NCBI GenBank assembly: GCA_050953885.1
Contig: JBMNNJ010000001.1
Location: 74,132 to 138,131, forward strand
DNA from: Patescibacteria group bacterium
GTDB taxonomy: Bacteria > Patescibacteriota > Microgenomatia > 0-14-0-10-38-17
Reading direction: 5' to 3'
DNA: 64,000 nucleotides
Part shown: in pieces, positions 8,191-63,545 of the stretch
Position numbering within the stretch: position 1 is the stretch's first letter
How the letters are laid out: each line of letters starts with the position of its first letter
The notes under the pieces: model-generated
The model's input: only the letters and a program-made list of their open reading frames with translations
Databases searched by the model: none
What the model was told of the DNA's origin: nothing
Made by a program: the position numbers and the translations under genes

Positions 8191-8194
8191 GGCT

Positions 8195-8250
8195 AAAAAA
8201 CACGAATTAACGCGAACGGGAAACGAATGAACGCGAATGAGCGAATAATT
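8195..8250. repeat. acgcgaat / acgaatg periodic repeat array
   Basis: cacgaattaacgcgaacgggaaacgaatgaacgcgaatgagcgaat; related arrays at 18470, 21325 and 41858. Confidence 0.6.
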
Positions 8251-16119: not shown

Positions 16120-16190
16120 TTTAATCCCGAGGTTCCTGCCTAATCAACCCCCGGAGTTGATTAGATTTGCAACCTCGGGAGCAATACTTA
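16120..16190. repeat. cccgaggtt ... ctaatcaacccccggagttgattag ... aacctcggg hairpin element
   Basis: Related copies at 25423-25475 and 35800-35920. Confidence 0.65.
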
Positions 16191-17684: not shown

Positions 17685-18091
17685 TGAAAAAAGTCCTTTC
17701 TTTTTTAAATCGCTTTTTACCGCCAATTTTGGTAATGGCGTTAATTTTTTATCTTTCTTCCCGTTCTTCCTTTTCGGTTTCGCCAAAATTTTGGTTAAAT
17801 TTTTTAGTTTTTAAAACCCTTCACTTTTTAGAATTCGGGTTTTTATTCCTGCTTTGGGCGCGCGCTTTTTTGGGCAATAAAAATCGTTTTTGGCTGGCTT
17901 TTCTTTTGAGCTTTTTTTGGGCCTTAACCGATGAGGTTCATCAGCTTTTTGTCCCTACCCGAGAGGGGACAATCCGTGATATGCTCATTGATACGGCCGG
18001 AATTTTATTTTTTTGGTGGCTTTTATGGAGTATCTTACCAAAAGCGCCCAAGAAACTAAAGAATTGGGCGAAAAAATTGGCGCTAATTTAA
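17684..18091 (+). CDS. VanZ-like family membrane protein
   Basis: LTDEVHQLFVPTREGTIRDMLIDTAG motif. Confidence 0.7.
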   Translation: MKKVLSFLNRFLPPILVMALIFYLSSRSSFSVSPKFWLNFLVFKTLHFLEFGFLFLLWARAFLGNKNRFWLAFLLSFFWALTDEVHQLFVPTREGTIRDMLIDTAGILFFWWLLWSILPKAPKKLKNWAKKLALI

Positions 18092-18468
18092 AGCCGGGTG
18101 ATCTCTTGGCTTGTTTTGGCCAGCTGGGAGGCGGAAAAACCACCTTTCTTCAAGGAGTGGCCAAGGCTTTGGGGATAAAGGAGCGAATTTTAAGTCCGAC
18201 TTTTATTTTGATGCGCCAATACGAACTTCCCCACCAAAAAAGAGGGATAGAAAGATTTTATCATTGGGACTGGTATCGGATTAAGGGAGAAAAGGAAGCC
18301 TTGGCGGCGGGTTTTGGCGAAAATCTTCTTGATCCAAAAGCGGTAGTGGCGGTAGAATGGGCCGAAAACGCCCTTAAAGCCTTGCCGAGAAAAAGAATTG
18401 AGGTTCATTTTGAATATGGGGAGAAAGAAAAAGAGAGAAGAATAAGGATTATTAGAAAGAATTGTTAA
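18025..18468 (+). CDS. tsaE: tRNA t6A37 threonylcarbamoyl-adenosine biosynthesis ATPase TsaE
   Basis: GQLGGGKTTF P-loop, SPTF, HWDWYR motifs. Start at MEYLTK; overlaps the VanZ gene 3' end. Confidence 0.8.
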   Translation: MEYLTKSAQETKELGEKIGANLKPGDLLACFGQLGGGKTTFLQGVAKALGIKERILSPTFILMRQYELPHQKRGIERFYHWDWYRIKGEKEALAAGFGENLLDPKAVVAVEWAENALKALPRKRIEVHFEYGEKEKERRIRIIRKNC

Positions 18469-18469
18469 A

Positions 18470-18535
18470 AGACGCGAATTGACGCGAATGAGAAACGAAG
18501 GGACGCGAATGAGCGAATGGAATGGTTGGAGTAGC
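18470..18535. repeat. acgcgaat periodic repeat array directly after the tsaE stop
   Basis: gacgcgaattgacgcgaatgagaaacgaagggacgcgaatgagcgaatggaatgg. Confidence 0.6.
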
Positions 18536-20432: not shown

Positions 20433-21323
20433 ATGAGCGCTAAAAAAGGTTTAAAAGATTTTTTTATTCCCGGCGAAAGTAATAATTTTCGCGCCCGTCT
20501 GCTCCATCTGCCATTTTTGGCCGCCTTTCTCTTTTTTTTCCTTTTTTTTAAAACCGCCCTTTCTTTATACCTTTTAACTAATCCGGCGGTTTTAGGTTAT
20601 TCTTCGCAAATTACCAGCGCCCAGATTATAGAGTTAACAAATGCGGAACGGCAGAAGTATGGCCTGCCGGCGTTAACGCCTAGCCCTCTTTTGGAAAAAG
20701 CGGCGCGGCTTAAGGCGGAGGATATGTTTGCCGGCGACTATTGGTCGCATCGCTCGCCTACGGGAAAAACCCCTTGGGATTTTTTGAAAGAAGTTGGTTA
20801 TAATTATGTTTACGCTGGGGAAAATTTAGCCCGTGACTTTGCCGACGCGTCGGGAGTGGTGGCGGCGTGGATGGCCTCGCCGACTCATAAAGAAAATATT
20901 GTAAGTAAGAATTATCAGGAAATTGGGGTGGCGGTGGTTGATGGCGAGCTTGGGGGTTTGAAGACTACTCTGGTGGTGCAGATGTTTGGGACGCCGACAA
21001 GGCTGGTGGGAGAAAAGCCGCCGGCGCCGGTTCAGGAAATGCCGCCAGAGATAAAAGCAAAAACGGAGGAAAAAGGAGGAGTGCTTCCCTCGGCGGAAAA
21101 TAATAATCTTGGAGAAAAAGGAGGAACGATTGACCTTTTATCCTTAGAAAAACTGGCGGTGGTTTTTTGCTTGGGGTTACTCTTAGGAGTTTTAGTGGTA
21201 GATAAGGTGGTGGCGGAAAGAAGGCAAACGCCGCGATTAACAGCCGACAACAATGCCCATCTTATTTTCCTGCTTTTGGTGATTTTAGTAGTGGTTCTTT
21301 TGGAAGCGGGGACGATTGTTTAA
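20433..21323 (+). CDS. CAP/SCP/PR-1-like domain protein with N-terminal TM and C-terminal TM
   Basis: CAP motifs (LTNAERQKYGLPAL, YWSHRSP, GENLA, HKENI). Confidence 0.7.
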   Translation: MSAKKGLKDFFIPGESNNFRARLLHLPFLAAFLFFFLFFKTALSLYLLTNPAVLGYSSQITSAQIIELTNAERQKYGLPALTPSPLLEKAARLKAEDMFAGDYWSHRSPTGKTPWDFLKEVGYNYVYAGENLARDFADASGVVAAWMASPTHKENIVSKNYQEIGVAVVDGELGGLKTTLVVQMFGTPTRLVGEKPPAPVQEMPPEIKAKTEEKGGVLPSAENNNLGEKGGTIDLLSLEKLAVVFCLGLLLGVLVVDKVVAERRQTPRLTADNNAHLIFLLLVILVVVLLEAGTIV

Positions 21324-21324
21324 G

Positions 21325-21483
21325 ATACGCGAATTAACACGAATGGAAAACGAATGGACGCGAATTTGTAGGGGCGGGGTTTTTCCCCGCCCGAAACCAA
21401 AATGAATTCTATAGGGGCGATTCATGAATCGCCCGTTAGGGTAATTGGCGCCAATATGCGGGCGCATCGTGATGCGCCTCTAC
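21325..21483. repeat. acgcgaat array (21325-21365) followed by a 117-bp GTAGGGGCG-bounded structured element with 4 inner hairpins
   Basis: Same families as 18470 and 14771. Confidence 0.65.
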
Positions 21484-25180: not shown

Positions 25181-25422
25181 TTGCTACATTACTCTTGCTA
25201 TTATTATCTTGCTATTATTATCTTGCTATTATTGTCTTGTTATTATTACAGGTCTAATATCGTCATCATCGCTAGTGACTTATTTAGGGGGCGATCGCCC
25301 CTATTTTAATTCCCTTTTAAATTTAAAAATTTTTAGTTAATTATTTTTCTTCTATATTTTTAAAAATATAGCGGTAAAATATAGGTGAGTCAGAAAAAAG
25401 CCAGGCGAGAAAATTTTTTTAT

Positions 25423-25475
25423 CCCGAGGTTTGAAGCTAATCAACTCCGGGGGTTAAATGGCTTCAAACCTCGGG
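25423..25475. repeat. perfect 15-bp stem hairpin cccgaggtttgaagc ... gcttcaaacctcggg with ctaatcaactccggggg loop
   Basis: Family also at 16120 and 35800-35920. Confidence 0.7.
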
Positions 25476-25623
25476 AGTTAGCTATAAAATAATTCCGGTG
25501 ATTATTTTATTTTGATTTCCTAATTTCGCGAGCGCAAGCGAGTTAATTTCTCAATTTCAGCCCCGTCAGGGCGGGACGAATTTCTAACTTCTAATTTTCT
25601 TTTTTTTATGTGTTAGAATAAAG

Positions 25624-28085: not shown

Positions 28086-29116
28086 GTAAAGATTCTTTTG
28101 GCTAAAAGAATAACTCCTCCCGTTACTAAGGGAATAAAAAGATTATCGTTAAGGCGCCGGCCGTCAATTTTTGGTTCGCTGAATTCCAAGATGGTGGTAG
28201 TGATAATTGCTGGGGCTAAGAATTTCAAAGGCACATAGGGCAGGGAAACGGTAGCGGCGGCAATGGCACTAGCGAAGGCGGCACTCCAGCGCTTCTTTAA
28301 AGAATGACCATTATTTAGATAATAACCGGTAATCGCATTAATTGAATCCCCCACTGCCAAGGTTAAAATGGCTACTGTAGCAACAGGAAGAGGAAAAGCA
28401 AAAACAGCGGCTAAGCTGCTCCAGGTAAAAAGAAGCGGGCCAAGCCCTAAAAATTTCGGCAAGGGTTTTCGCTCGAAATAAATAATAATTTTATTTAAGA
28501 AAGTAAGAGGTCGAAGATGATTTAAGAGAAGAAGGATGGTTAAAAGAAGGGTAAAAAGGGCAAGGTAGTAGGGGGTTAAAATTTGATAATTAACCACCAG
28601 CGCTAAAGACAAGCCGTAAAAAAGATGGACAATTTTTCTCCTTAGGTTAACGTCCTTACTCCAGTCGGAAGCGTGTTTGGTTTGGGAAAGAAAATAAAAA
28701 AACCAAAAAATGGCGGTGGCAAGAAAGAAGCCGCCAACAACATCAGAAAGATGATGCAGTCCTAAACTAACCCGGGAGTAAGCAATTAAAAAAGCTCCAA
28801 AGAAACCCAAGGGGGAAAGTTTTGGCCAAAAAACGGTGATTGTCCAGGCAATAACGGTGGCCACCGCCGTATGCAAAGAAGGAAAGGCAAAATCGGCGGG
28901 GATATTGGTGGTTACTCCCAAAACAGCGGGGTTTTCAACAAAAGGCCGGCTTATTTGGGTTAAATCCTTAATTATTTTTCCAAAAAATAGGGTAAAAATT
29001 AAGGCGGGGGCAAAAATGGGTAGAAAATATTCTTTTTTAAATTTTAGGATAAAAAAAGCCAGCAGCCCGATTAATATCGGCAAAAGGAATGGTGAGTTAA
29101 GAATGGCGGCAATCAT
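28082..29116 (-). CDS. PAP2-family phosphatase domain fused to a C-terminal polytopic membrane domain (possibly CTP-dependent polyprenol/dolichol-kinase-like; tentative)
   Basis: PAP2 motifs KDLTQISRPF, PSLH, SRVSLGLHHLSDV; about 150 further aa with 4-5 TM helices. Confidence 0.55.
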   Translation of the reverse strand: MIAAILNSPFLLPILIGLLAFFILKFKKEYFLPIFAPALIFTLFFGKIIKDLTQISRPFVENPAVLGVTTNIPADFAFPSLHTAVATVIAWTITVFWPKLSPLGFFGAFLIAYSRVSLGLHHLSDVVGGFFLATAIFWFFYFLSQTKHASDWSKDVNLRRKIVHLFYGLSLALVVNYQILTPYYLALFTLLLTILLLLNHLRPLTFLNKIIIYFERKPLPKFLGLGPLLFTWSSLAAVFAFPLPVATVAILTLAVGDSINAITGYYLNNGHSLKKRWSAAFASAIAAATVSLPYVPLKFLAPAIITTTILEFSEPKIDGRRLNDNLFIPLVTGGVILLAKRIFT

Positions 29117-29928
29117 TTTTTGGAAAGGTTTTTCGTTTTAGAAACAGAAAGAGATTTTTTTTCTGATTTTTCGGTAAGAAAATTATTAATGGCAAATAAA
29201 AAGACGCCAAGAGAAAAAATTAATTCGGTAGGCTCTTGGTCTCGGGCATCAATAAAAGTGTCAAAAAAATTGAGATCCTCATGGAGCCAGAACTGGAGCC
29301 AAAGCAGGGTGTCTTTGCCAAGAAAGTCAGCAGAAGGAAGGCTTAAATCACGGATAAAAACAGCTACCAGTTCATCTATATACTGAACCCAAGAATAATA
29401 AAAAAGAATAGGGAAAAAATAGAAAGAAAGATTTTTTTGGGGGAAAAATTTTTCAATCCAAGGGGTCTTTTTTTTGAATTTTGAAACAATTATCCAGCCA
29501 AAAGAACCCCAAAGGCCAATTAAAATATAAATTTGTGGTAGTTTTCCTTGGAAAAAGCCTAAGTTATGAATAGTGATTTCGTTTTGGACATTTTTTTGGG
29601 CAATTTTTTCTGGGGTTTCTATTTCCAAGATTCTTTGTCCCCAAGAAATTTCTTCGCCGGCAACAAAGAATAAACCAAGCGATAAAATAAAAAAAACGCT
29701 TCCTAACCAGAAGTTTTTCTTTTTAAAAAAACTTAAGGCGGTTAAAAATGAAAAAATACTGGCTAAAAGAAAAAAAGTAAATTGCAGCCACTCAACTGGG
29801 CCGTCTTCGGCAATAAAAAGATGATAAAGATAAGCGTTTTTTATTTTAAAGACGATAAAAAAAATAACAAGAATAATAGGCAGAAGAAAAATAATTTTAT
29901 TTTTTCTAAAAATGTTTGTTAGCTTCAT
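29113..29928 (-). CDS. hypothetical polytopic membrane protein
   Basis: Multiple TM helices; lies in the operon between trmD and the PAP2 fusion. Confidence 0.4.
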   Translation of the reverse strand: MKLTNIFRKNKIIFLLPIILVIFFIVFKIKNAYLYHLFIAEDGPVEWLQFTFFLLASIFSFLTALSFFKKKNFWLGSVFFILSLGLFFVAGEEISWGQRILEIETPEKIAQKNVQNEITIHNLGFFQGKLPQIYILIGLWGSFGWIIVSKFKKKTPWIEKFFPQKNLSFYFFPILFYYSWVQYIDELVAVFIRDLSLPSADFLGKDTLLWLQFWLHEDLNFFDTFIDARDQEPTELIFSLGVFLFAINNFLTEKSEKKSLSVSKTKNLSKK

Positions 29929-30699: not shown

Positions 30700-30960
30700 A
30701 ATCAGTAGAGTAAAAGGCAAAGACCTGCCGCAGTGGGGTCTTGCTATGGCGGGACAAAACCTAAATCAAAGTTCAAAAACAAAAGATAAACTCAAATGTT
30801 AAATCGCAAAACGCAAATCTACAACGCAAAACTCAAAACTTGAAAGACAAAAACAGAATTACAATTTAGAAATACAAATATTAAGCCCCTAAAGTTTTTT
30901 TGTTCTACTTTTGAATTTTAACTTGTACTTTTGACTTTTAAATTTTGACTTTTGAATTTA
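30700..30960. repeat. intergenic repeats: gtaactcgtaacaagtaa unit, gcagtggggtcttgctatggcgggac palindrome, AT-rich k-mer element
   Basis: Shares the 55-bp AT-rich segment with 25084 and 3905. Confidence 0.65.
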
Positions 30961-30962
30961 TT

Positions 30963-31358
30963 ATGAACGATTGTGTTTTTTGCCAAATTGCGGCCGGGAA
31001 AATTCCCTGTTTTAAAATTTACGAAGGGGAGGATTTTTTGGCTTTTTTGGATATTAATCCTTGGGTTGAAGGCCACACTTTGGTAATCCCCAAAAAGCAT
31101 TACCGTTGGGTTTGGGATATGCCGGAAGAATTAGTCGGTCAGTATTTTGCCGTGGTTAATAAAGTTGCTAATCATTATCGGCAGGTTTTTAAAACAGAAT
31201 TTGTGATGAGCTGGATTTATGGTTTTGAGGTACCCCACGCTCATGTTCATCTTTTCCCCAATTCGCGGGGAAAAATTGCCTTTTACCCAAAAGAAAAATT
31301 GCCAACGCTTACGAACGAGGAAGGGGAAAAGTTAGCGGCGGCATTAAAATTAAAATAA
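30963..31358 (+). CDS. HIT-family (histidine triad) nucleotide hydrolase
   Basis: HVHLFP histidine triad. Start at MNDCVFCQI. Confidence 0.88.
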   Translation: MNDCVFCQIAAGKIPCFKIYEGEDFLAFLDINPWVEGHTLVIPKKHYRWVWDMPEELVGQYFAVVNKVANHYRQVFKTEFVMSWIYGFEVPHAHVHLFPNSRGKIAFYPKEKLPTLTNEEGEKLAAALKLK

Positions 31359-35559: not shown

Positions 35560-35930
35560 AAATTATGACACGACTAACAAGCCGTCATTCTGAACTCGAT
35601 TCAGAATCGTTGTTTAATGCCTAAAGAAATGATTCTGATTTTCATCAGGACAACGCTTTCGTTAGAATGACGGCGGGAGGAGTCAGGATGACGACAGCCG
35701 TGCCGTCATTCCGGACTTGATCCGGAATCTGTGTTATTACCAAGGAAAGATTCTGACTTTCGTCAGAATGACAGAGAAGCGCCAGAATGACAGTAAGGGA
35801 ATAATTCTGCCTAATCAACTCCGGGGACTAATCCCGAGGTTTGAAGCTAAAAAAGTCCCGAGGTTTGAAGGCTCGCCAACTCCGGGGGTTAAATAGCTTC
35901 AAACCTCGGGAAAATAAGCAGAAATGATAA
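35560..35930. repeat. large composite repeat cluster (hairpin modules in both orientations plus tandem cccgaggtttgaag hairpins)
   Basis: gccgtcattctgaactcgattcagaatcg, gattccggatcaagtccggaatgacgg, cccgaggtttgaagc x2, gcttcaaacctcggg. Confidence 0.75.
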
Positions 35931-35961: not shown

Positions 35962-37524
35962 ATGGCTAAATATAAAGAAAAATTTCTTCGTTGGGCTCCA
36001 TTTGTCTTACTGGTTTTTCTCTCGGCTTTCCTGCGTTTTTATAAGCTTGAGGATTTAACTACTTTTCTTGATGATCAGGGACGAGATGTTTTAAAAGCGG
36101 CCCAAATTATAAAAGAAAAAGATCTACCGTTTATTGGCCCTTTGGCCTCAATGGGGAATGTTTATTTAGGGCCTCTTTATTACTGGGCGATTACTCCCGT
36201 TCTTTGGCTTTTTGGCTTTAATCCGGTTGGGCCGGTGGTTTTGGTGGCTCTTTTGGGAGTGCTAACCAATATTTTGCTTTTTTTCTTTCTTTGGCGTTAT
36301 TTTGACAAAAAAAGCGCTTTTTTGGCTAGTTTTCTTTACGCTCTTTCGCCTTTAATTTTGCAAAACAGCCGTTTTTCCTGGAACCCCAATCCGGTGCCTC
36401 TTTTTACCCTGCTTTGGTTTCTCTTGATGTTAAAATTTTTTGATGAGGAGAAAGGGCGATGGGCCCTTGGGGCGGGGATTTGCTTGGGGATTCTTCTTCA
36501 GCTTCATTATGTTACCGGCTTGCTTTTATTATTCACCGGGGCGGCTTTATTATTTTGGCTGATTAAGAAAAGCCGCCAAGAAAGTTTTTCCCCAAAACTC
36601 TTGAAACCTTTAGGCTGGTTAATCTTAGGAGTTATTATTCCCCTCATTCCCTTTATTCTTTTTGAATTTAAAAATTATTTTCTTAACACCCGGGCGGCGT
36701 GGCAATTCCTTTTTGACGGTCATAAAGAAGAGCTTTTGGCAGAAAGTTTGTTAAGCCGCGTTTTTGCTTTACTTAATCGTTTTTTTCAGGAACTTTTGGG
36801 TCTTTCCCGCCCTTCCCCTCTGCCGCTGGCTTACTTTATTTTAACCGTTCTTTCTCTTTTCTTTGTGGGAGGGAAAAAATTGGGAAAAGAAAAAAAGAAA
36901 ATAATTTTTTCTTCTGCCGCGATTTTAGTTTTAACGCCGTTTTTGCTTTGTGGGGCGGTTGGGGGCGAAATTCATCTTCATTATATTGGCCTTCTTTATC
37001 CTTTTGTTTTTATTATTGTGGCGGCGGGAGATTATTTATGGCGTCGGGCGCGGTTTTGGCCGTTGGTAATTTTAAATAGCGCTCTTTTGCTTTTGGCCTG
37101 TTACCAAATGGGGAGTTGGGATTATCGGCAAATTATTACCGCTGACAGTAATCATCAGATAGAAAAAGCGAAGCTGACCGCCGAGTACATTAGCCAGGAA
37201 GCGGAGGATAAAAATATTTTCGTCGCTTCCCTCACCGGTTCTCCTTTTGCCTACCCGGCTCGCTATTTTCTTTATCTTCAGGATTTTACCGTCGATTCTT
37301 TACAGCCCTCATCTGTTTTTGCTGTTTGCTATGATCAACCTTGCCAACCGGAGAAAAGCATTCTTTGGGAATTAGCCCAATTTGGGATTTTAAAAACGGT
37401 AAGCGAGAAAGCGCTTCCTTATGGGGTGTGGGTGTATGAATTAAAAACTCAAATGTCAAGCTTAGAACTCAAATCTCAAAACGCAAATGTCAAATCTACA
37501 TGGCAAATGTTAAAACTTTTTTAA
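35962..37524 (+). CDS. polytopic membrane glycosyltransferase-like protein (GT-C; paralog of 62095-63459); last ~25 codons come from an AT-rich repeat element
   Basis: N-terminal motif FLDDQGRDV ... IGPLASMGNVYLGPLYYW; 520 aa. Confidence 0.55.
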   Translation: MAKYKEKFLRWAPFVLLVFLSAFLRFYKLEDLTTFLDDQGRDVLKAAQIIKEKDLPFIGPLASMGNVYLGPLYYWAITPVLWLFGFNPVGPVVLVALLGVLTNILLFFFLWRYFDKKSAFLASFLYALSPLILQNSRFSWNPNPVPLFTLLWFLLMLKFFDEEKGRWALGAGICLGILLQLHYVTGLLLLFTGAALLFWLIKKSRQESFSPKLLKPLGWLILGVIIPLIPFILFEFKNYFLNTRAAWQFLFDGHKEELLAESLLSRVFALLNRFFQELLGLSRPSPLPLAYFILTVLSLFFVGGKKLGKEKKKIIFSSAAILVLTPFLLCGAVGGEIHLHYIGLLYPFVFIIVAAGDYLWRRARFWPLVILNSALLLLACYQMGSWDYRQIITADSNHQIEKAKLTAEYISQEAEDKNIFVASLTGSPFAYPARYFLYLQDFTVDSLQPSSVFAVCYDQPCQPEKSILWELAQFGILKTVSEKALPYGVWVYELKTQMSSLELKSQNANVKSTWQMLKLF

Positions 37525-37760
37525 AGCTTAAAGTTGTTTTTTTAGATTTAAGTTTTGAATTGTTGTTTTGATCTGCCAGCTGGCGGATTGAGTTGTAGTT
37601 TTAAGTTTTGCGATTTAACATTTGAGTTTATTTTTTGTTTTTGAACTTTAATTTAGGTTCTAATCTTTTCCGCCAGCTGGCGGGTTGATATTTGATTTTT
37701 GTATTTTTTTAATACTGATTTTCATCAGGACAACAGTTGCGTTTTGTCCGTAGTCCAACC
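37441..37760. repeat. AT-rich element (reverse-complement copy of 50645-50710) plus ccgccagctggcgg palindromes
   Basis: gatctgccagctggcggattgag and ttccgccagctggcgggttg. Confidence 0.7.
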
Positions 37761-37863
37761 CGAGGCGCCACAGTTACCGGCGAGGCAGGAATCCCGTTGT
37801 GCTAAGACATTGAAACAATAAAGCAATCTAATAAGGTAATTTTATGTTATTATCATTTTTAAG

Positions 37864-38631
37864 ATGAATAAGAAAGAGGCGGCGATTTTTCTTTCGGTGG
37901 TGATTCCTTGCTATAACGAGGAGGCAAATTTAAAAAGAGGGGTTTTGGGGGAAGTTAACGACTATCTTCAAAAACAAAAATATTCTTGGGAGGTAATCAT
38001 CTCCGATGATGGCTCAACTGATAAAAGCAAGGATTTAGCCGAAAAATTTGCGAAAAGTAATCAGGGCTTTAGGCTTTTGAAAAATCAGCATGGCGGCAAG
38101 CCCTACGCTGTTTGGCAGGGAATTAAGAAGGCGCGGGGACAAATTGTTTTGTTTACCGACATGGATCAGTCCACCCCCATTAGGGAAATAGAAAAGCTTT
38201 TGCCTTATTTTAAGAAAAACTACGACGTAGTGATCGGTTCAAGAGGCTGGAAACGAACCGGCGCCCCTTTCTATCGGCAAATAGCGGCTTTTATTTTCTT
38301 GCAAGTGCGCCGTCTCCTGCTTTTACCGGAAATTATCGACACCCAATGCGGTTTTAAGGCTTTTAAAACTAAAGTGGCTCAAGAGCTTTTTTCCAAACTT
38401 TCGGTTTTGAAAAATTGGCAGGAAGCTTCCGGCTGGCGGGTAACCGCTTTTGATGTAGAGCTTTTGTTTTTGGCCAAGAAAAAGGGCTACCGGATTAAAG
38501 AAGTGCCGGTTTTGTGGCGCGATGAGGATGTGGCTTTGGGAAAAAATAAAAGTTTTGTCAAAGAATCGCGACAAATGCTGGAGCAGATTATAAACGTGCG
38601 TCGTCAGGAACGGCGGGGGGAATACGAATAG
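37864..38631 (+). CDS. GT2 glycosyltransferase, polyprenol-phosphate sugar synthase-like (DPM1/ArnC-like)
   Basis: LSVVIPCYNEE ... ISDDGSTD ... FTDMDQS. Confidence 0.85.
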   Translation: MNKKEAAIFLSVVIPCYNEEANLKRGVLGEVNDYLQKQKYSWEVIISDDGSTDKSKDLAEKFAKSNQGFRLLKNQHGGKPYAVWQGIKKARGQIVLFTDMDQSTPIREIEKLLPYFKKNYDVVIGSRGWKRTGAPFYRQIAAFIFLQVRRLLLLPEIIDTQCGFKAFKTKVAQELFSKLSVLKNWQEASGWRVTAFDVELLFLAKKKGYRIKEVPVLWRDEDVALGKNKSFVKESRQMLEQIINVRRQERRGEYE

Positions 38632-41849: not shown

Positions 41850-42024
41850 AAATTACATTGTTAGAAGACGCGAATTAACACGAATGTAAGGCGGCCCCAT
41901 GTGTGTTCGCCTGTCAAAGGGCTTGTGTTTTGCATGTTTAAAACCATTAATCGGGTCGACACATGGGTCGACCCCTACCAATTCCCGTCACAGGCGGGAT
42001 CCCTACCTCGTTTAATTAACGTAA

Positions 42025-50353: not shown

Positions 50354-50399
50354 AAATAATAAACGGTAATTGTTTTTTATGATGAAAATTAAAGTCAAA

Positions 50400-50710
50400 A
50401 CAATCTAAATGCAAAGCGCGATCCGCCAGCTGGCGGACAGGATCTACCGTTCTTTAGACATTAATAACGATTCTGAATCAAGTTCAGAATGACGCTAATC
50501 GTAACCGTCATCCTGACGAAAGTCAGGATCTTTCCTTGTCATTAACACAGATTCCGGATCAAGTCCGGAATGACGGTTTCCGAGTTCGTCATTCTGACGA
50601 ATTCGCCAGCGGGCGGATTAAACTTTAAAAAGTTTTAACATTTACCATGTAGTTTTGCCATTTGACATTTGCGTTTTGAGATTTGAGTTTGTTTTTCGTG
50701 TCCATTCGTT
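50400..50710. repeat. composite intergenic repeat cluster (palindrome, three hairpin modules, AT-rich element)
   Basis: gatccgccagctggcggacaggatc; gattctgaatcaagttcagaatgacg; catcctgacgaaagtcaggat; gattccggatcaagtccggaatgacgg. Confidence 0.8.
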
Positions 50711-50728
50711 TCTTATTCGTTTTGGTTC

Positions 50729-53323
50729 ATGTCTTTTAGCAATGAAACAATGAAGCAGTCTAAGCCTCTTTTATCAATCATCATCGTTTCCTACAACACC
50801 CGGGAGCTTTTGGAAAAATGCCTTAACTCCGTGGTTAAATCATTAGCCGGCTCTAATCTTAAAAGCAACCAAGAAAAGATCCTGAACCAAGTTCAGGATG
50901 ACGCTAATCGCAACCGTCATCCTGACGATCCGCCAGCTGGCGGACAGGATCTGCCCTTGACCGAAATCATCGTTGTTGATAATAATTCCCGCGACGATTC
51001 GGTAGAAATGCTTCAAAATTTAAAATTGAAACTTGAAAATTCATTGAAAATTCAAAACTTAAAATTGAAAATTATTGTTAATAACGATAATCTTGGCTTT
51101 GCCAAGGCGGTTAATCAGGGAATTAAGAAAAGCCGAGGAGAATACTTGCTTCTTTTGAATTCCGACACGATTGTTCCTCCTCAAACTTTAGAAAAAATGA
51201 TTGAATTTGCCAGAAAGAAAAAAGACGCGGGCATTATTGCCCCCAAACTCTTAGATAAAAATGGAAAAACCTCCCAACCTTCCTGCTACCGTTTGCCGGC
51301 AATTAAGGGAGCCGTTAAAGAATTTTGGTTAGGGGAAAAAGGTGCTTTTGGAAAATATCTTCCCCGTGGCGGCAATCCGGTTAAGCCAGAAGCGGTGGTA
51401 GGGGCGGCGATGCTTATTCCCCGAGCCGTTTATGATGTGGTGGGCGAGTTTGACGAAAAATATTTTATGTATTATGAGGATTTAGACTATTGCCGCCGTG
51501 TTAGAGAAGCGGGATTTGCGGTTTATTATTTACCAACCGCTAAGATTATTCATTATCATGGTCAAAGCGGCCAAAAAGAGCCTCAAAAAGTTAATCGCCA
51601 TCTTATTGAAAGCAGTAAAAAATATCATGGCCGCCTAAAACATTTTTTCTTAAATGCCATCATTCGCCTTGGTCAGGCTAAAAAGTTTTTGCCGCTTATC
51701 CTTTTGGTTTTGGCAATGTTGGTCTGGTCGGTTCATCATTTATATTTTTTAAAACCTGCTTTTCCAAAAACCCATGATGGCCATTTTCACCTTATTCGTT
51801 TAGCTGAATTTGACCGATCTTTCAAAGCAGGTATTATTCCCCCTCGCTGGGCACCGGGTTTGGCCAATGGTTTGGGAGCGCCAGTTTTTAATTATTTTTA
51901 TCCCTTGGTTTATTACCTGGGAGAAGGATTTCATCTTTTGGGCTTTTCTTTTGCTTCCTCTCTTAAATTGGTGGCCGCTCTTTCTTGCTTTGCGGCTTTT
52001 TTCTTTAGCTTTCTTTTCTTTAAACTTTTTTTTGCTACCCTATCAAGTTTCTTGGGGGCAAGTTTAGTGGTTTATGCTCCCTACAGCTTTCTTAATCTTT
52101 TTGTGCGCGGAGAATTTCCAGAAATTTTGGCCCTTTGCCTTTTACCGGCAATTTTCTGGGCCACCACCAAGGCGGTTTTAAATAAAGAAAAAAACCGCCA
52201 TTTTCTTTTAGCCGCTCTTCCTTGGGCGTTGATAATTTTATCCCACAATATTATTGCCCTGCTAGCTACTGTCTGGTTGATAATTTTTTTATTTTTAGTT
52301 TTAATCAGGGATAGAAAAGCCGCTAAAAAAACAATTTTTATTTTTTTGTTATCGCTTGCTTTAAGCGCCTTTTTTTGGATACCGGCATTGGGAGAAATGA
52401 AATATGTTCATCTGGGTTATGATGAAGTTTTTTCCTGGTGGGACCATTTTCCCACTCTTAGGCAGTTAATTTATTCTCCTTGGGGGCATGGTTATTCTTA
52501 TCCGGGACAAAGCGATGAAATGTCTTTTCAAATTGGCTTACCCCATCTTTTTCTTTCCCTATCGGCAGGGATACTTCTTTTAATCCAGCTTTTCAAAGAC
52601 AAGAAAAATTTTTGGAAAAGCTGGAAAAATCTAGCCATTTTTTTCTTTGCCTTTTCTTCTTTTACCTTTATCTTTTTAATGAATCACCGCTCTTCTTTTT
52701 TCTGGCAAACGCTTCCTTTTCTTTCCCGGGTCCAGTTTCCGTGGCGGTTTTTGGGATTTTTAAATTTTTCTCTTTGTTTCTTAATTACTTTTTTCTTAGA
52801 ACAGCTTTTATCTTTTTCAAAAGAAAAAATCGCCTTGCCAGTTATTTTTCTTATTTTTATCGGAACATTTTTTGCTTATTTTGGTTATATCCGGCCGGAA
52901 AGTTATCTTACTCAAGAAGTAATCTTTAATTCAAATGAAGTGCGGGAAACCACTACCAATGCCAATGAAATTTTACCGATTTGGGCGCCAAAAGATAGTT
53001 ATCAAAATATTAATTTAACCAATACAATAGAGTGTAAAGAGTTTTCCTGCGAAACATCAACTGCCTTTAACCAAGAAAAAGAAGTTATTTTCAGAAAATT
53101 TTATTTTCCTTCTTGGCAGGGAAAAATTGATGACTTTCCTTTAAGGCTTTATCCTCAAGAAAAAACAGGCTTGATAGCCGCGCTGGTTCCGGCCGGAAAT
53201 CATCAGGTTAGGATAGAGTGGGGGAAAACTAATCTTGAAAGGGCGGCCGATTATATCAGTCTTGCTTCGCTTGTCTTTTTGTTTTCTTTTATTACGATCT
53301 TTAAAAAGAAAAAATTAACTTGA
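50729..53323 (+). CDS. fusion protein: N-terminal GT2 domain plus C-terminal large GT-C-like polytopic membrane domain (YfhO-like family)
   Basis: LSIIIVSYNTRE ... VVDNNSRDDS ... YYEDLDYCRR, then FPKTHDGHFHLIRL ... IPPRWAP ... GAPVFNYFYPLVYY and C-terminal FYFPSWQG. Confidence 0.8.
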   Translation: MSFSNETMKQSKPLLSIIIVSYNTRELLEKCLNSVVKSLAGSNLKSNQEKILNQVQDDANRNRHPDDPPAGGQDLPLTEIIVVDNNSRDDSVEMLQNLKLKLENSLKIQNLKLKIIVNNDNLGFAKAVNQGIKKSRGEYLLLLNSDTIVPPQTLEKMIEFARKKKDAGIIAPKLLDKNGKTSQPSCYRLPAIKGAVKEFWLGEKGAFGKYLPRGGNPVKPEAVVGAAMLIPRAVYDVVGEFDEKYFMYYEDLDYCRRVREAGFAVYYLPTAKIIHYHGQSGQKEPQKVNRHLIESSKKYHGRLKHFFLNAIIRLGQAKKFLPLILLVLAMLVWSVHHLYFLKPAFPKTHDGHFHLIRLAEFDRSFKAGIIPPRWAPGLANGLGAPVFNYFYPLVYYLGEGFHLLGFSFASSLKLVAALSCFAAFFFSFLFFKLFFATLSSFLGASLVVYAPYSFLNLFVRGEFPEILALCLLPAIFWATTKAVLNKEKNRHFLLAALPWALIILSHNIIALLATVWLIIFLFLVLIRDRKAAKKTIFIFLLSLALSAFFWIPALGEMKYVHLGYDEVFSWWDHFPTLRQLIYSPWGHGYSYPGQSDEMSFQIGLPHLFLSLSAGILLLIQLFKDKKNFWKSWKNLAIFFFAFSSFTFIFLMNHRSSFFWQTLPFLSRVQFPWRFLGFLNFSLCFLITFFLEQLLSFSKEKIALPVIFLIFIGTFFAYFGYIRPESYLTQEVIFNSNEVRETTTNANEILPIWAPKDSYQNINLTNTIECKEFSCETSTAFNQEKEVIFRKFYFPSWQGKIDDFPLRLYPQEKTGLIAALVPAGNHQVRIEWGKTNLERAADYISLASLVFLFSFITIFKKKKLT
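50878..50951 (+). repeat. 74-75 bp hairpin repeat element inserted in-frame inside the GT2 domain of the 50729 gene (encodes KILNQVQDDANRNRHPDDPPAGGQD)
   Basis: Near-identical to intergenic copies at 50468-50545 and 53400-53545: gatcctgaaccaagttcaggatgacgctaatcgcaaccgtcatcctgacgatccgccagctggcggacaggatc. Confidence 0.8.
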
Positions 53324-53369
53324 GTTATATCCAAATCTTTATGGCAAAACGTAATTTTGCCTCTTGGCC

Positions 53370-53620
53370 CCGTATAATTTTGGTACGGGACTTGACGAGT
53401 TCGTCATCCTGACGAAAGTCAGGATCTGCCTTTGGCATTAACACAGATTCCGGATCAAGTCCGGAATGACGGTTTCCGAGTTTGTCGTTCTGACTCCTCT
53501 TACCGTCATTCTGACAATCCGCCAGCTGGCGGACAGGATCTGCCTCTTTCTGACGATAAGGCAGATTATAAGACAGATTCTGAATTAAATTCAGCATGAC
53601 GACCAGGGGATTATTTATGT
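53370..53620. repeat. composite repeat cluster (same modules as 50400-50640)
   Basis: The 90-aa minus-strand ORF here is simply a translation of the repeats. Confidence 0.8.
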
Positions 53621-59245: not shown

Positions 59246-60349
59246 ATGGGAAAAATTAAAGTGGGGATTGATATTTCTCCTCTTAAAAATGCCAACCGTT
59301 TTCGAGGGGTAGGTTTTTATACAAAGAATTTAGTGGAATCGTTACAGAGTCTAATAAAAGAAAACAAAAAATACTCAAATTGGCAAATAAACTTAATTGA
59401 AAATTGGAAATTGGAAATTGGAAATTTTGATTTGTTTCATTACCCTTATTTTGATATTTTTTTTCCTACTCTTCCCAAAAAAAAGAATATCCCCACAGTG
59501 GTGACGGTTCATGACTTAACGCCCTTGGTTTTTCCCGAGCATTACCCGGCGGGAGTACGAGGGAAAATTAATTGGTTGCGGCAAAAAAGAAACCTAAAAA
59601 AAACCGAGGCAATTATCACCGATTCCCAAAAATCAAAGCAGGACATTGTTAAAATTGTCGGTTATCCTGAAAAGAGGGTTCATGTGGTCTACTTAGCCCC
59701 TTCTTTTGACCCTAAAAAATTTAAAACTGAAAATTTAAAATTGAAAATTAAACAAAAGTATCATCTTCCTGATAATTTTGTTTTGTATGTGGGTGATGTT
59801 AATTGGAATAAAAATCTCCCCGGTTTGGTGAAAGCTTGCCGAAAAATAGGTATTCCTTTGGTGATTGTGGGTAAGCAGGCGGTGAGCAAAGATTATGACC
59901 AAACCCATCCGGAAAATCAGGGCTTGGTTTGGTTGCAAAGGGAAGCAGAAAAATCTAAATTGCTAAAACGCGATCACTCTAAGTCTCTGCTTTTATTAGG
60001 CTTTGTTGAGGAAGAAGACTTGGCGGCTTTATATAATTTAGCCACTCTTTATTGCCAGCCTTCATTTTATGAAGGCTTTGGCATGCCGGTGGTGGAAGCC
60101 ATGGCCGGCGGTTGCCCGGTGGTTTGCTCTAATCAAGGATCGTTACCAGAAATTGGCGGCCAAGCAGTTGCTTATTTTGATCCTTATAAGAAAGGCAATT
60201 TGGAAAAAGTTTTAAAAAAGGTTTGGGAAGATAAAAATTTAAGGCAAGAACTTGCCCAAAAAGGCTTAGCCCAAGCCAAAAAATTTTCCTGGCCAAAATG
60301 CGCCCAAGAAACACTTAATGTTTATCAGAAGATTTTAGATAATTCATAA
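59246..60349 (+). CDS. GT4 (group 1) glycosyltransferase
   Basis: EGFGMPVVEAMAGGCPVVCSN. Confidence 0.82.
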   Translation: MGKIKVGIDISPLKNANRFRGVGFYTKNLVESLQSLIKENKKYSNWQINLIENWKLEIGNFDLFHYPYFDIFFPTLPKKKNIPTVVTVHDLTPLVFPEHYPAGVRGKINWLRQKRNLKKTEAIITDSQKSKQDIVKIVGYPEKRVHVVYLAPSFDPKKFKTENLKLKIKQKYHLPDNFVLYVGDVNWNKNLPGLVKACRKIGIPLVIVGKQAVSKDYDQTHPENQGLVWLQREAEKSKLLKRDHSKSLLLLGFVEEEDLAALYNLATLYCQPSFYEGFGMPVVEAMAGGCPVVCSNQGSLPEIGGQAVAYFDPYKKGNLEKVLKKVWEDKNLRQELAQKGLAQAKKFSWPKCAQETLNVYQKILDNS

Positions 60350-62117: not shown

Positions 62118-63459
62118 TTGGTCTTGCCTAACTTTGTTGGCAGTTTTGGTTATTTTTCTTTTTCTTCGTTTTTACCAACTGCCCCAACGAACCATTTTTA
62201 ATTGGGATCAGGAAAGGGATGCTTTTGAAGTGCAAAAAATTCTTTCTGGCGACCCAAGCCTTATCGGCCCGCGTGTTTTGGGGCCGCAAGGGTTTTTCTT
62301 AGGCCCTTATTTTTACTATCTTTTAGCGCCATTTTATTTCCTCACCGGCGGCCACCCCCAAGCGATTGTTTATTTCCTAATCGTCTTGAACCTTGTTTTT
62401 TTCTTGGCCGCCTATTTGATTGTTAAAAAAATCTGGGGAGAAAAAACCGCCCTAATCTTTCTTTTTCTTTGGACGATTAATCCGGCGGCAATAGAAACGG
62501 TGGCCTGGAATCCGACCCTAATCCCCTTAATGATTATTTTAATCTGGTTTACCCTTTCTCAAAAAAGTTATTTTTGGTTGGGCTTAAGCCTTTCTTTGGC
62601 GATTAATTTCCATTTTCAGGCAGTTTTTTTGGCGCCTTTTATTTTACTTTTTTTGTTTTGGCAAAGAGAGCTTTCGGGAAAAAATTTAGGCAAAGCGGCG
62701 TTGGGATTTTTTTTACCCTTTATTCCCTTGCTTCTTTTTGACTTACGACATAACTTCTTAAATTTTAAGCTTTTGGGGCAGTTTATAAAAGAGCGAGGCG
62801 AGGGGGGCAATTTTTTGGCTTGGCGGCCGGTGCTGGCTAATTTTTTAACTGGCTTTTGGGGGGAGGAAAAAATTTGGCTCCCCTTGACTTTAGCGCTTGT
62901 TCTTTTAACCCTGTGGCTTGTTAAAAAGCAAAAAAATTATTTTTCCAAAAACTTTCTTAAAAGTCTTCTTTTTCTTTACCCCATTGTTTTGTTGGGTTTT
63001 AGCATTTATGGCCAAAGACCGTCGGAATATTATTTTAATTTTCTTTTACCCTTTTTTATTTTAGTTTTGGCCTTATTTATCAGCTCTTTTGGCAAATTAA
63101 AACGGCTGTTTTTTTTGCTTCTTTTTATTCTTCTCTGGTTGCCAAAAACGATGGAAAAAACCGTTCCTGTTTCGGTTAGTTTGTTGGCGAAAGACAAAGC
63201 AATTGCTTATTTGGTAGAAAAAAACGGGAAAATACCGGCGGAAGTTCGCTATCAAACTCCTTTAGGCGAGGAAGCAGGTTTTTCCTATTTGCTAAATTAC
63301 TACGGCTTGGAAAAAGCGACCGAAGGAGAAAGAAAAATCTGGCTGGTAAGCATTCCGCCGGCAGAAGAAAGCCAAGCTTTTGGTGGAGTGGGAGTAAAAT
63401 TAATAGGAGAGGAAAAAAATTTGCTTATTAACAACGATTCTGAATCAAGTTCAGAATGA
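62095..63459 (+). CDS. polytopic membrane glycosyltransferase-like protein (paralog of 35962); stop codon supplied by a repeat element
   Basis: FNWDQERDAFEV ... IGPRVLGPQGFFLGPYFYY. Confidence 0.5.
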   Translation: MKLKGKLNWSCLTLLAVLVIFLFLRFYQLPQRTIFNWDQERDAFEVQKILSGDPSLIGPRVLGPQGFFLGPYFYYLLAPFYFLTGGHPQAIVYFLIVLNLVFFLAAYLIVKKIWGEKTALIFLFLWTINPAAIETVAWNPTLIPLMIILIWFTLSQKSYFWLGLSLSLAINFHFQAVFLAPFILLFLFWQRELSGKNLGKAALGFFLPFIPLLLFDLRHNFLNFKLLGQFIKERGEGGNFLAWRPVLANFLTGFWGEEKIWLPLTLALVLLTLWLVKKQKNYFSKNFLKSLLFLYPIVLLGFSIYGQRPSEYYFNFLLPFFILVLALFISSFGKLKRLFFLLLFILLWLPKTMEKTVPVSVSLLAKDKAIAYLVEKNGKIPAEVRYQTPLGEEAGFSYLLNYYGLEKATEGERKIWLVSIPPAEESQAFGGVGVKLIGEEKNLLINNDSESSSE

Positions 63460-63545
63460 CTGTAACCGCAGTCGTCATTCTAACGATCCGCTCGCTGGCG
63501 GACAGAATCTGTTTTGATTCTGAATCAAATTCAGAATAACGCTCT
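63425..63545. repeat. composite hairpin-module cluster
   Basis: gattctgaatcaagttcagaatgac; gtcgtcattctaacgatccgctcgctggcggacagaatc; gattctgaatcaaattcagaataacg. Confidence 0.75.

What the first reader, a model, noticed from the sequence alone, without database searches (positions are those of the whole stretch)
37441..37524. AT-rich dispersed element supplies the C-terminal tail of a membrane glycosyltransferase
The sequence 37441-37510 is the reverse complement of 50645-50710 (gttttaacatttaccatgtag..ttgacatttgcgttttgagatttgagtt). Here it is read in-frame as the last ~25 codons of the 35962 gene (...ELKTQMSSLELKSQNANVKSTWQMLKLF-stop). Separately, the 62095 gene ends on SSSE-stop encoded by hairpin 1 of the 63425 cluster. 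Repeats are therefore rewriting protein C-termini, not only sitting between genes.
Basis: seen in the sequence. Interest (0 to 1): 0.5.

Follow-up and report, generated by a model that had tools for sequence, protein, structure and literature searches.

The report
Palindromic repeat read as protein tail
In this tiny-genome (CPR, Shapirobacteria-like) bacterium, a glycosyltransferase gene lost its stop codon and now reads about 23 extra codons out of the A-rich arm of a dispersed palindromic repeat; the same repeat family adds unstable tails and loop inserts to other proteins, much as Rickettsia palindromic elements do.

Summary
Window 37457-37531 matches the reverse complement of 50618-50691 (81% over 75 nt). 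A shared 21-mer occurs twice in the window against 0.01 expected by chance. The 520-aa PMT_2/GT39 gene (35962-37524) reads this sequence in frame as residues 496-520.

Orthologs end 1-5 residues after the conserved ...VWVYELK. Among proteins at least 90% identical there are at least nine different C-termini, all encoded by repeat sequence.

The repeat is the left arm of a roughly 170-200-nt imperfect palindrome: an A-rich arm with about 7-nt periodicity, an apex, and a T-rich arm, with optional GC mini-hairpins. It occurs at 20 or more unrelated loci in metagenomes. The stop codon lies in the apex.

A sister strain (L005) carries the same array as non-coding DNA directly after a TAA stop. The window lacks one 7-nt unit that contains that stop. 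Another strain (L002) reads the opposite arm in inverted orientation.

The second claim also holds. The 62095 gene ends in ...NNDSESSSE-stop inside hairpin 1, and relatives stop 13 codons earlier with the same downstream DNA left untranslated.

The GT2 gene at 50729 carries two in-frame repeat inserts. Elsewhere the element extends ribosomal protein L11 and topoisomerase I.

Verdict: real, generalisable, and a new member of a known kind (MITE/RPE-like coding co-option). Translation and function of the tail were not tested.

The parts
35962..37524 (+). PMT_2 / GT39 (ArnT-like) membrane glycosyltransferase gene, 520 aa. The conserved core is residues 1-495 (35962-37446).
   Evidence: ORF. Pfam PF13231 E 1.4e-12. 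Orthologs in Candidatus Shapirobacteria and Microgenomates. In the AlphaFold model the last strand is 489-496.
37447..37524 (+). Repeat-encoded C-terminal tail TQMSSLELKSQNANVKSTWQMLKLF (codons 496-520) plus the TAA stop at 37522-37524.
   Evidence: Absent from orthologs. Variable among proteins at least 90% identical. pLDDT 41-48.
37443..37516 (+). A-rich left arm of the palindromic element. It has roughly 7-nt periodic units and starts with the terminal motif AAACTCAAATG.
   Evidence: Alignment of 20 copies with unrelated flanks. Self-BLAST to 30758-30980 and 50618-50691.
37517..37535 (+). Apex of the element (TTTTTTAAAGCTTAAAGTT). It contains the stop codon used by the gene.
   Evidence: Over 90% conserved among copies. 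Lies at the tip of the predicted hairpin.
37536..37572 (+). Proximal T-rich right arm.
   Evidence: (D10).
37573..37586 (.). Optional GC mini-hairpin CTGCCAGCTGGCGG, inserted in the right arm.
   Evidence: 10 copies in the window against 0 expected. Present or absent at different points in different copies. Flagged as terminator-like.
37587..37640 (+). Distal T-rich right arm, ending in the inverted terminal motif CATTTGAGTTTAT.
   Evidence: 92% complementary to 30758-30829 (I1). Its reverse complement encodes the tail of the L002 ortholog.
37670..37683 (.). Second GC hairpin CCGCCAGCTGGCGG, followed by T-rich sequence. Terminator-like.
50618..50691 (-). Intergenic, upstream of the GT2 gene at 50729, and truncated by a GC hairpin cluster.
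30758..30980 (-). Related composite copy between divergent genes.
   Evidence: Matches 37443-37659 at 68% over 224 nt, E 5.7e-21.
63421..63459 (+). Tail NLLINNDSESSSE plus TGA of the PMT_2 gene 62095-63459. The last 9 codons and the stop lie in hairpin 1 (63433-63457).
50874..50958 (+). GC hairpin cluster read in frame inside the GT2 gene 50729-53323 (about aa 44-77, ...ILNQVQDDANRNRHPDDPPAGGQDLP...).
   Evidence: (D3).
51001..51060 (+). AT-rich heptad array read in frame inside the same GT2 gene (aa 91-111, LQNLKLKLENSLKIQNLKLK).
   Evidence: (D2).

Best explanation
The sequence 37443 to about 37640 is one copy of a dispersed, roughly 170-200-nt imperfect palindrome typical of this Shapirobacteria-like CPR lineage. 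It has an A-rich arm built of roughly 7-nt units, a conserved apex, and a T-rich arm. Both ends carry inverted AAACTCAAA(T)G motifs, and small GC hairpins are optional inserts.

The element sits directly against the 3' end of the glycosyltransferase gene. In the window lineage a one-unit (7-nt) deletion removed the TAA stop that follows ...ELKTQM in a sister strain. The ribosome is therefore expected to read through the whole A-rich arm, which is relatively poor in stop codons and codes K/N/S/Q/L-rich peptide. It stops at a TAA in the apex.

The result is a hydrophilic appendage of about 23 residues, unconserved and probably disordered or loosely helical, on the C-terminal soluble domain. It is most likely neutral and tolerated rather than functional.

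The same process produces many alternative tails in close relatives and at other genes: small indels or substitutions at stops, unit indels inside arrays, gain or loss of GC mini-hairpins, and inversion of the palindrome. Where elements insert inside genes, the process yields in-frame loop insertions.

Shown: the homology, the absence of the tail in orthologs, the tail polymorphism, the DNA differences, and the dispersal of the element. Inferred: the direction of the change (stop loss), translation in vivo, neutrality, and whether the element spreads by transposition or by recombination among terminator-like hairpins.
For: Observation and significance.

Gene identity.

Orthologs end at ELK plus 1-5 aa.

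At least nine tails within one 90%-identity cluster: TQM*, TQMLNRKT*, TPVSNVKTQN*, TPVPNAKTQN*, TQISNVKSQN*...NYNSIRQLADRE*...NYNSIRQRADRIE*...NYNSKLKSKKITLSFKKVLTFAM*, and the window tail.

DNA comparison with L005: L005 reads ATG TAA AATGGCAAGCTTAAAACTCAA[TCCGTCAGCTGGCGGA]TCAAAACGCAAATGGCAAAACTACATGGCA. This is the same array, untranslated. The window lacks AAAATGG, which includes the stop, and lacks the GC hairpin.

Inverted arm in L002: L002 2371-2485 matches window 37629-37519 reversed (78% over 115 nt, E 2e-23). Its tail ...IRQLADRE is ATCCGCCAGCTGGCGGAC read in frame.

Element definition and dispersal.

Reads into other proteins: L11 (...GVKVEGE-LKTQMSKLKTKT*), topoisomerase I (...YPKCKYIEK-ITQNANVKTQNDNEKPTNS*), and an 830-aa membrane/TPR protein (internal).

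Same mechanism at gene 62095: relatives read GAA AGA TAA TTTGCTTATTAACAACGATTCTGAATCAAG, whereas the window reads GAA AAA AAT TTG CTT ATT AAC AAC GAT TCT GAA TCA AGT TCA GAA TGA.

Stop codons are rarer in the A-rich orientation (6.3%) than in the T-rich orientation (9.3%).

The tail has low model confidence after the last conserved strand.

The region is strongly structured as RNA (z -5.95), and its GC hairpins score as terminator-like.
Against: - There are no proteomic or transcript data, so translation of the tail is an inference from an uninterrupted frame.
- The polarity of the 7-nt difference rests on outgroup tail length, not on a rooted tree.
- All comparison sequences are metagenome assemblies. 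Repeats can cause local misassembly, although the indels discussed lie inside single contigs and several variants recur in 2-4 contigs.
- The stop-codon asymmetry between orientations is modest.
- No target-site duplication, partner transposase or clear element boundary was found, so mobility is not demonstrated.
- All three window cases are envelope glycosyltransferases. This could hint at selection, but the window is a glycosyltransferase cluster.
Confidence: 0.8

Rival explanations
1. The variable tails are adaptive. Unit-length (7-nt, non-triplet) indels and arm inversion in the array would act as a switch that diversifies the exposed C-termini of envelope glycosyltransferases, in the manner of phase or antigenic variation.
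For: There are nine tails among proteins at least 90% identical. A one-unit 7-nt indel toggles the stop. All three window cases are envelope glycosyltransferases.
Against: The units are imperfect rather than identical tandem copies, so slippage should be rare. The same element also extends L11, topoisomerase I and possibly DnaK, which are cytoplasmic. The tails have no conserved motif and low structural confidence. The window is simply rich in glycosyltransferase genes.
Confidence: 0.08
2. The extension is an artefact: a sequencing or assembly indel in an AT-rich repeat, or a gene call that ignores the real stop.
For: The region is low-complexity and AT-rich, and all data are metagenome assemblies. 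A single 7-nt difference decides the outcome.
Against: The identical 520-aa protein is recorded on 4 contigs from NCBI and JGI sources. Other tail variants also recur on 2 contigs each. A 7-nt deletion is not a typical homopolymer error. There is no in-frame stop between 37447 and 37521.
Confidence: 0.04
3. The element is not mobile DNA. It would be a family of transcription terminators or 3'-UTR stabiliser hairpins, kept similar by selection and gene conversion. ORF overlap would be a side effect of terminators abutting stop codons.
For: GC hairpins followed by T-rich runs score as terminator-like. Many copies start 4-12 nt after a same-strand stop. The region forms a long hairpin. No transposase or target-site duplication was found.
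Against: The A-rich arm shows no orientation preference relative to the left-hand gene (33 co-directional, 31 divergent). The element occurs in both orientations at the same locus. Copies occur inside ORFs. The core is over 90% identical across 20 unrelated flanks, more than a terminator function would require. This rival concerns the nature of the element and is compatible with the read-through mechanism for the tail.
Confidence: 0.35
4. The similarity between 37441-37524 and 50618-50691 is chance resemblance of AT-rich sequence.
For: Both are A/T-rich with a roughly 7-nt period, and many weak (61-68%) matches exist among such arrays (D1 and D6).
Against: An exact 21-mer is shared against 0.01 expected. 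The match is 81% over 75 nt. The same sequence recurs at over 90% identity at 20 loci.
Confidence: 0.01

Closest known systems
Rickettsia palindromic elements (RPEs; Ogata et al. 2000, as summarised in PMC10969869)
   Same: Both are short palindromic dispersed repeats in a reduced-genome bacterium. Both are found between genes and in frame inside unrelated protein-coding genes, adding peptide segments at positions the fold tolerates.
   Different: The lineage is unrelated (CPR/Shapirobacteria). The element here is strongly AT-rich with roughly 7-nt periodic arms and optional GC mini-hairpins. Most documented cases here are C-terminal extensions produced by stop loss and read-through into an adjacent copy, not internal insertions. 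No conserved element-encoded peptide was found: two reading frames are used (KTQMS..., QNANVK...). Sequence similarity to RPE families was not tested.
Bacterial MITEs with coding potential (Correia/NEMIS, ERIC/IRU, BOX, RUP; Delihas 2007, cited in PMC10969869)
   Same: Size of 100-200 nt, terminal inverted repeats or an overall palindrome, many copies, a location next to genes, and occasional in-frame fusion with host ORFs.
   Different: No target-site duplication, defined termini or partner IS were found. The architecture is modular and nested (CGAAT outer arms, heptad arms, apex).
SPRITE and other terminator-like repeat families; REP/BIME elements at 3' ends of genes
   Same: Repeated hairpins placed just after stop codons. 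GC stems followed by T-rich runs.
   Different: The main hairpin here is long and AU-rich. It shows no orientation bias and also occurs inside ORFs.
GC clusters in AT-rich spacers of yeast mitochondrial DNA, including optional in-frame clusters in var1 (from my own knowledge, not checked here)
   Same: Small GC-rich palindromes inserted at variable points into AT-rich spacer DNA, and sometimes into coding sequence without breaking the frame.
   Different: Organelle versus free-living-size bacterial genome. No sequence relationship is known.
Generic stop-codon loss with C-terminal extension into the 3' UTR
   Same: This is the mechanism seen at both window genes.
   Different: Here the 3' UTR is a dispersed repeat, so the same peptide motifs recur on unrelated proteins.

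Membership tests
MITE | Short (about 50-500 bp), non-coding, and present in many copies at unrelated sites | tested here: met
20 full copies with unrelated flanks were aligned.
MITE | Terminal inverted repeats | tested here: met
   Both ends carry inverted AAACTCAAA(T)G, and the arms are imperfectly complementary overall. However, the palindromy often continues outward into CGAAT arrays, so the true termini are unclear.
MITE | Target-site duplication flanking the insertion | tested here: inconclusive
   No consistent duplicated bases are visible at the ends of the alignment, and the boundaries are fuzzy.
MITE | A related autonomous IS/transposase with the same ends | tested here: not met
   There is no transposase in the 64-kb window (tblastn with the Y1_Tnp of L004, best E 0.14). 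The L004 Y1_Tnp gene is flanked by different hairpins. The rest of the genome was not available.
Rickettsia palindromic elements | Membership of one of the RPE sequence families of Rickettsia | not tested
   No RPE sequences were available in the tools used. The host lineage is different, so only functional analogy is claimed.
Rickettsia palindromic elements | In-frame presence inside functional protein genes at positions the fold tolerates | tested here: met
   GT2 gene 50729: the inserts fall between core elements. Insert 1 has pLDDT 49-71 within a core above 90, and distant orthologs lack it. C-terminal tails follow the last conserved strand.
REP/BIME with RAYT | 20-40-nt GC-rich imperfect palindromes, extragenic, in high copy number | tested here: met
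   This applies to the GC mini-hairpins only. CCGCCAGCTGGCGG occurs 10 times against 0 expected.
REP/BIME with RAYT | A cognate RAYT (Y1 transposase) gene flanked by the same REPs | tested here: not met
   None in the window. The Y1_Tnp in L004 has unrelated flanking hairpins.
Intrinsic terminator | A GC-rich stem-loop immediately followed by a U tract, oriented with the upstream gene | tested here: inconclusive
   Consensus scan hits at 37567-37592 and 37669-37684, but their tails are T-rich rather than true T-runs. The element shows no orientation bias. No transcript data are available.
Known RNA families (Rfam 15) | A match to a curated covariance model | tested here: not met
   The only hit at gathering threshold in the window is a tRNA. 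Nothing credible at E up to 1 in 37380-37900 or 50380-50980.

The most novel reading that the evidence does not exclude
Shapirobacteria-like CPR bacteria may be a second clear case, after Rickettsia, in which a family of coding-compatible palindromic repeats routinely becomes part of proteins, including core ones such as ribosomal protein L11, topoisomerase I and possibly DnaK. The distinctive twist would be that the arms' 7-nt periodicity, the optional GC mini-hairpins and inversion of the palindrome make C-termini switch between many alternative tails on the time scale of strain divergence.
Probability: 0.45. Interest if true: 0.65.

Novelty: new member of a known kind. Interest (0 to 1): 0.5.

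Why it matters
The finding matters in three ways.

1. It shows that the abundant intergenic repeats of a CPR genome are not confined to spacers. They feed low-complexity peptide segments into real proteins, so C-termini and some loops differ between strains that are over 90% identical.

2. It affects annotation of CPR metagenome-assembled genomes. Gene ends, spurious repeat ORFs and protein clustering by length are all influenced.

3. It gives a second, independent system besides Rickettsia for asking how reduced genomes tolerate, or even exploit, selfish palindromic DNA in coding sequence. The recurrent peptide signatures (KTQMS..., QNANVK..., IRQLAD...) can be searched directly in metaproteomes.

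Tried and rejected
- Looked up the window protein and the identical P0197 in the contig index. Neither is on record, so the rest of the source genome could not be read.
- Rfam at gathering threshold (whole window) and at E-value threshold (two regions) found no known RNA family.
- Literature searches for CPR/Patescibacteria repeats, MITEs and REP-driven C-terminal extensions found nothing specific to this lineage. Searches for peptide and DNA strings of the GC hairpin were also empty.
- Looked for a transposase. There is none in the window, and the Y1_Tnp in the syntenic locus L004 has unrelated flanking hairpins.
- Tested whether the A-rich arm is essentially stop-free. The difference is only modest: 6.3% against 9.3% stop triplets, and 15 against 6 of 54 segment-frames fully open. 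Permissiveness helps but does not fully explain the tails.
- Tested for orientation bias of the element relative to neighbouring genes. There is none on the left side (33 vs 31) and a modest one on the right (44 vs 20).
- Tested whether the conserved segment 37712-37823 is a remnant of the NUDIX gene that L003 and L004 carry at this position. No similarity was found.
- Rejected the idea that the tail is ancestral and the repeats derive from the gene, because outgroups lack it.
- Two of the seven ORFs reading into the 19-mer (L186, L188) look like spurious frames, and a third (L207) may hold the 19-mer by chance. None of the three was counted as evidence.
Full report
**1. The observation**

The window sequence at 37441-37524 reads ttaaaaactcaaatgtcaagcttagaactcaaatctcaaaacgcaaatgtcaaatctacatggcaaatgttaaaacttttttaa. 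Its partner lies on the other strand at about 50618-50691. The repeat finder gives arms 37457-37524 and 50624-50691, 68 nt and 81% complementary (I8). A self-BLAST of the window gives 37457-37531 vs 50691-50618, 81.3% over 75 nt.

It is more than AT-rich resemblance. The non-periodic 21-mer CTACATGGYAAATGTTAAAAC occurs exactly twice in the window, at these two places, against 0.01 expected.

The ORF 35962-37524 (520 aa) ends ...VWVYELKTQMSSLELKSQNANVKSTWQMLKLF-stop, as quoted. It is a PMT_2/GT39 ArnT-like membrane glycosyltransferase.

**2. Is the tail part of the gene family?**

No. The 19 closest cluster representatives are from Candidatus Shapirobacteria and Microgenomates, i.e. CPR/Patescibacteria. 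All align to ...VWVYELK, and those at 45-79% identity stop 1-5 residues later.

Inside the single 90%-identity cluster, lengths range from 498 to 527 aa. After ELK the sequences read as follows:
- TQM*
- TQMLNRKT*
- TPVSNVKTQN*
- TPVPNAKTQN*
- TQISNVKSQN*
- TQMLNRKTQNYNSIRQLADRE*
- TQMSNVKTQNYNSIRQRADRIE*
- TQMLNRKTQNYNSKLKSKKITLSFKKVLTFAM*
- the window tail

The window protein is identical to P0197 (NCBI MGI6775786.1, 'Patescibacteria group bacterium'), which is seen on 4 contigs, one of 597,657 bp. In an AlphaFold model the fold ends with strand 489-496, and residues 500-520 have pLDDT 41-48.

**3. What the tail DNA is**

The window is full of modular intergenic repeats:
- AT-rich arrays with a roughly 7-nt period (6 A-rich and 6 T-rich strict arrays, against about 0 in shuffles)
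- GC mini-hairpins such as CCGCCAGCTGGCGG (10 copies against 0 expected)
- multi-hairpin clusters
- CGAAT arrays

A metagenome scan with a 19-mer from the tail (TCAAAACGCAAATGKCAAA) hit its 120-locus limit. It gave 90 distinct A-rich contexts.

Aligning 20 copies with unrelated flanks defines a roughly 170-nt imperfect palindrome:
- left arm: ...AAATAAACTCAAAACGCAAATGGCAAATCTACATGGCAAATGTTAAAAC
- apex: TTTTTAAAGCTTAAAGTT
- right arm: GTTTTTTAGATTTGAGTTTTGAGTTGTAGTTTTGAGTTTTGCGATTTAACATTTGAGTTTAT

The core is over 90% conserved, the ends are inverted AAACTCAAA(T)G motifs, and GC mini-hairpins are inserted at different points in different copies.

The window copy spans 37443 to about 37640. The gene reads the whole left arm, and its TAA (37522-37524) lies in the apex. 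The copy at 50618-50691 is a left arm plus apex in the opposite orientation. The region 30758-30980 is a related composite. The region folds far better than shuffled sequence (z -5.95). The GC hairpins score as terminator-like. No Rfam family matches.

**4. How the tail arose**

The DNA of close relatives is informative. In L005 (protein P0202...ELKTQM*) the sequence after ATG is TAA AATGGCAAGCTTAAAACTCAA[TCCGTCAGCTGGCGGA]TCAAAACGCAAATGGCAAAACTACATGGCA. This is the same array as in the window, but untranslated.

The window differs in two ways. It lacks AAAATGG, which is one 7-nt unit and contains the stop. It also lacks the 16-nt GC hairpin. Since all outgroups have short tails, the parsimonious reading is stop loss followed by read-through. 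This polarity is an inference.

In L002 (93% identical protein) the tail is encoded by the reverse complement of the right arm plus a GC hairpin. L002 2371-2485 matches window 37629-37519 reversed, 78% over 115 nt, E 2e-23. IRQLAD is ATCCGCCAGCTGGCGGAC read in frame. The same palindrome therefore abuts the gene in either orientation, and the shared KTQM is encoded by the terminal motif common to both arms.

The 79%-identity relative L001 has a 98-nt spacer with only a short heptad-like stretch (CAACTTTTGACTTTTGAATTT) and ends ELKIED*. L003 and L004 have other arrays and an extra NUDIX gene.

**5. The second claim**

ORF 62095-63459 (PMT_2) ends GAA AAA AAT TTG CTT ATT AAC AAC GAT TCT GAA TCA AGT TCA GAA TGA. 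The last nine codons and the stop lie in hairpin 1 of the 63433-63511 cluster.

Most relatives at 92-100% identity share this tail. P0232, P0234 and P0239 end ...LIGEER*. P0238 reads through the whole cluster (...IRQLADRI...) for 60 more residues. Orthologs at about 45% identity stop near the LIGEE position.

In L247 and L248 the DNA is GAA AGA TAA TTTGCTTATTAACAACGATTCTGAATCAAGTTCAGAAT. This is the same downstream sequence, untranslated, and it differs from the window by substitutions and one base around the stop. This is again stop loss and read-through into an adjacent repeat.

**6. Generality**

In the window, self-similar repeats overlap gene ends at several places: 18468 (8 nt), 21323 (4 nt), 24958 (2 nt), 37524 (82 nt) and 63459 (33 nt).

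The GT2 gene 50729-53323 contains a hairpin cluster (50874-50958) and an AT array (51001-51060) in frame. Pfam matches residues 16-171 to only 113 profile positions.

Shapirobacteria-clade orthologs have hypervariable inserts at the same two loops. Some are longer hairpin-cluster translations (P0078...RHPDESQDLPLALTQIPDQVRNDG...). Others translate different repeats (P0088: RGLKPATP...). More distant orthologs have none. In the model, insert 1 (aa 41-77) has pLDDT 49-71 in a core above 90.

In the metagenome set, 7 of 90 contexts have an ORF of at least 100 codons reading into the 19-mer. Four of these are recognisable proteins:
- ribosomal protein L11 (tail LKTQMSKLKTKT*)
- topoisomerase I (tail ITQNANVKTQNDNEKPTNS*)
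- an 830-aa membrane/TPR protein (internal insert)
- a DnaK C-terminus

Two of the other three ORFs look like spurious frames, and the third may hold the 19-mer by chance. None was counted as evidence.

Eleven of 52 copies lie 4-12 nt after a same-strand stop. Stop triplets are rarer in the A-rich orientation than in the T-rich one (6.3% vs 9.3%). The A-rich translation is rich in K, N, S, L and Q. The element shows no orientation bias towards the gene on its A-rich side (33 vs 31).

**7. Comparison with what is known**

The behaviour matches Rickettsia palindromic elements and other MITE-like repeats that fuse in frame with host ORFs (review PMC10969869). It also matches ordinary stop-loss extension.

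As a MITE it meets three criteria: size, copy number and inverted ends. It lacks a demonstrated target-site duplication or partner transposase. A terminator-family reading remains possible for the element itself, but the lack of orientation bias and the intragenic copies argue against it being the whole story. No paper in the searchable library describes such elements in CPR bacteria.

**8. Verdict**

The observation and the interpretation are supported. The refinement is that the ORFs grew into pre-existing adjacent repeats, and that the AT-rich sequence is one arm of a larger palindromic element. This is a new member of a known kind. Interest is moderate (0.5): the mechanism is familiar, but its frequency, its reach into core proteins and its occurrence in CPR are not documented in the literature searched.

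Noticed in passing
window 24208, 50466, 50553, 50875, 63433; loci L007-L126: Hairpin 1 of the GC clusters (GATYCYGRAYCAAGTYCRGRATGAC) is not lineage-specific. Hosts include Sphingomonadaceae isolates, Dehalococcoidia, Bacteroidota, Spirochaetia, Omnitrophota, Elusimicrobia and several Patescibacteria. The stem shows compensatory variants, while the loop TCAAG and the 3' (G/A)ATGAC are constant. It is often next to sibling hairpins of the form GTCAYY-stem-CTTGAY-stem-RRTCC. This looks like a cross-phylum REP-like hairpin superfamily. No paper or Rfam family was found.
   Followed up: partly
window 50729-53323 (inserts at 50874-50958 and 51001-51060): The GT2 glycosyltransferase carries two in-frame repeat insertions in loops of the catalytic domain. 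Orthologs have different repeat-derived inserts at the same two sites, and distant ones have none.
   Followed up: yes
L004 3898-4575 (-): A 225-aa Y1_Tnp (IS200/RAYT-like) gene lies between the PAP2 and TrmD genes. It is flanked by CACCTTAGAGGTGG / CCACCTCTAAGGTG hairpins. At the corresponding place the window has a 271-aa ORF with no Pfam match (29113-29928). There is no Y1 transposase in the window.
   Followed up: partly
window 37712-37823; also 35632-35654: A roughly 112-nt segment upstream of the GT2 gene at 37864 falls inside a 164-nt match (94% identity) to L002 that runs on into the start of that gene. The segment is absent from L001, L003 and L004, which carry a NUDIX gene or a short spacer there. 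It contains the hairpin CTGATTTTCATCAG, which recurs at 35632-35654. It has no Rfam match and is not a NUDIX remnant.
   Followed up: partly
window 8189-8246, 18461-18518, 21316-21373, 41857-41886: CGAAT-type arrays (ACGCGAATTAACGCGAATGG...) start at or within a few bases of stop codons. The stops of genes 18013-18468 and 20433-21323 lie in the first bases of the repeat. In metagenome copies these arrays form the outer arms of the same palindromic composites.
   Followed up: partly
window 53325-53597 (-): A 90-aa ORF is built almost entirely (191 nt) from hairpin-cluster repeats. It is probably a spurious gene call of the kind these repeats generate.
   Followed up: no
window 59386-59426 and 59716-59751 (GT4 gene 59246-60349); 10003-10037 (gene 8445-11174): Heptad-like A-rich stretches lie in frame inside genes (NWQINLIENWKLEIGN; KKFKTENLKLKIKQK). 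They were not compared with orthologs, so they may be native sequence or old insertions.
   Followed up: no
L194 4877-7366 (+): An 830-aa membrane/TPR protein contains two in-frame repeat-like segments. One (NSKQFQNTNDKNTKHFENLNLDHSSLFRISDFGFRI) looks like a whole A-arm plus T-arm hairpin read through.
   Followed up: no
window 16125-16180, 25416-25480, 35831-35917; protein P0088: Another dispersed element (TCCCGAGGTTTGAAGC...) is read in frame as RGLKPATP repeats in loop 1 of a GT2 ortholog.
   Followed up: no
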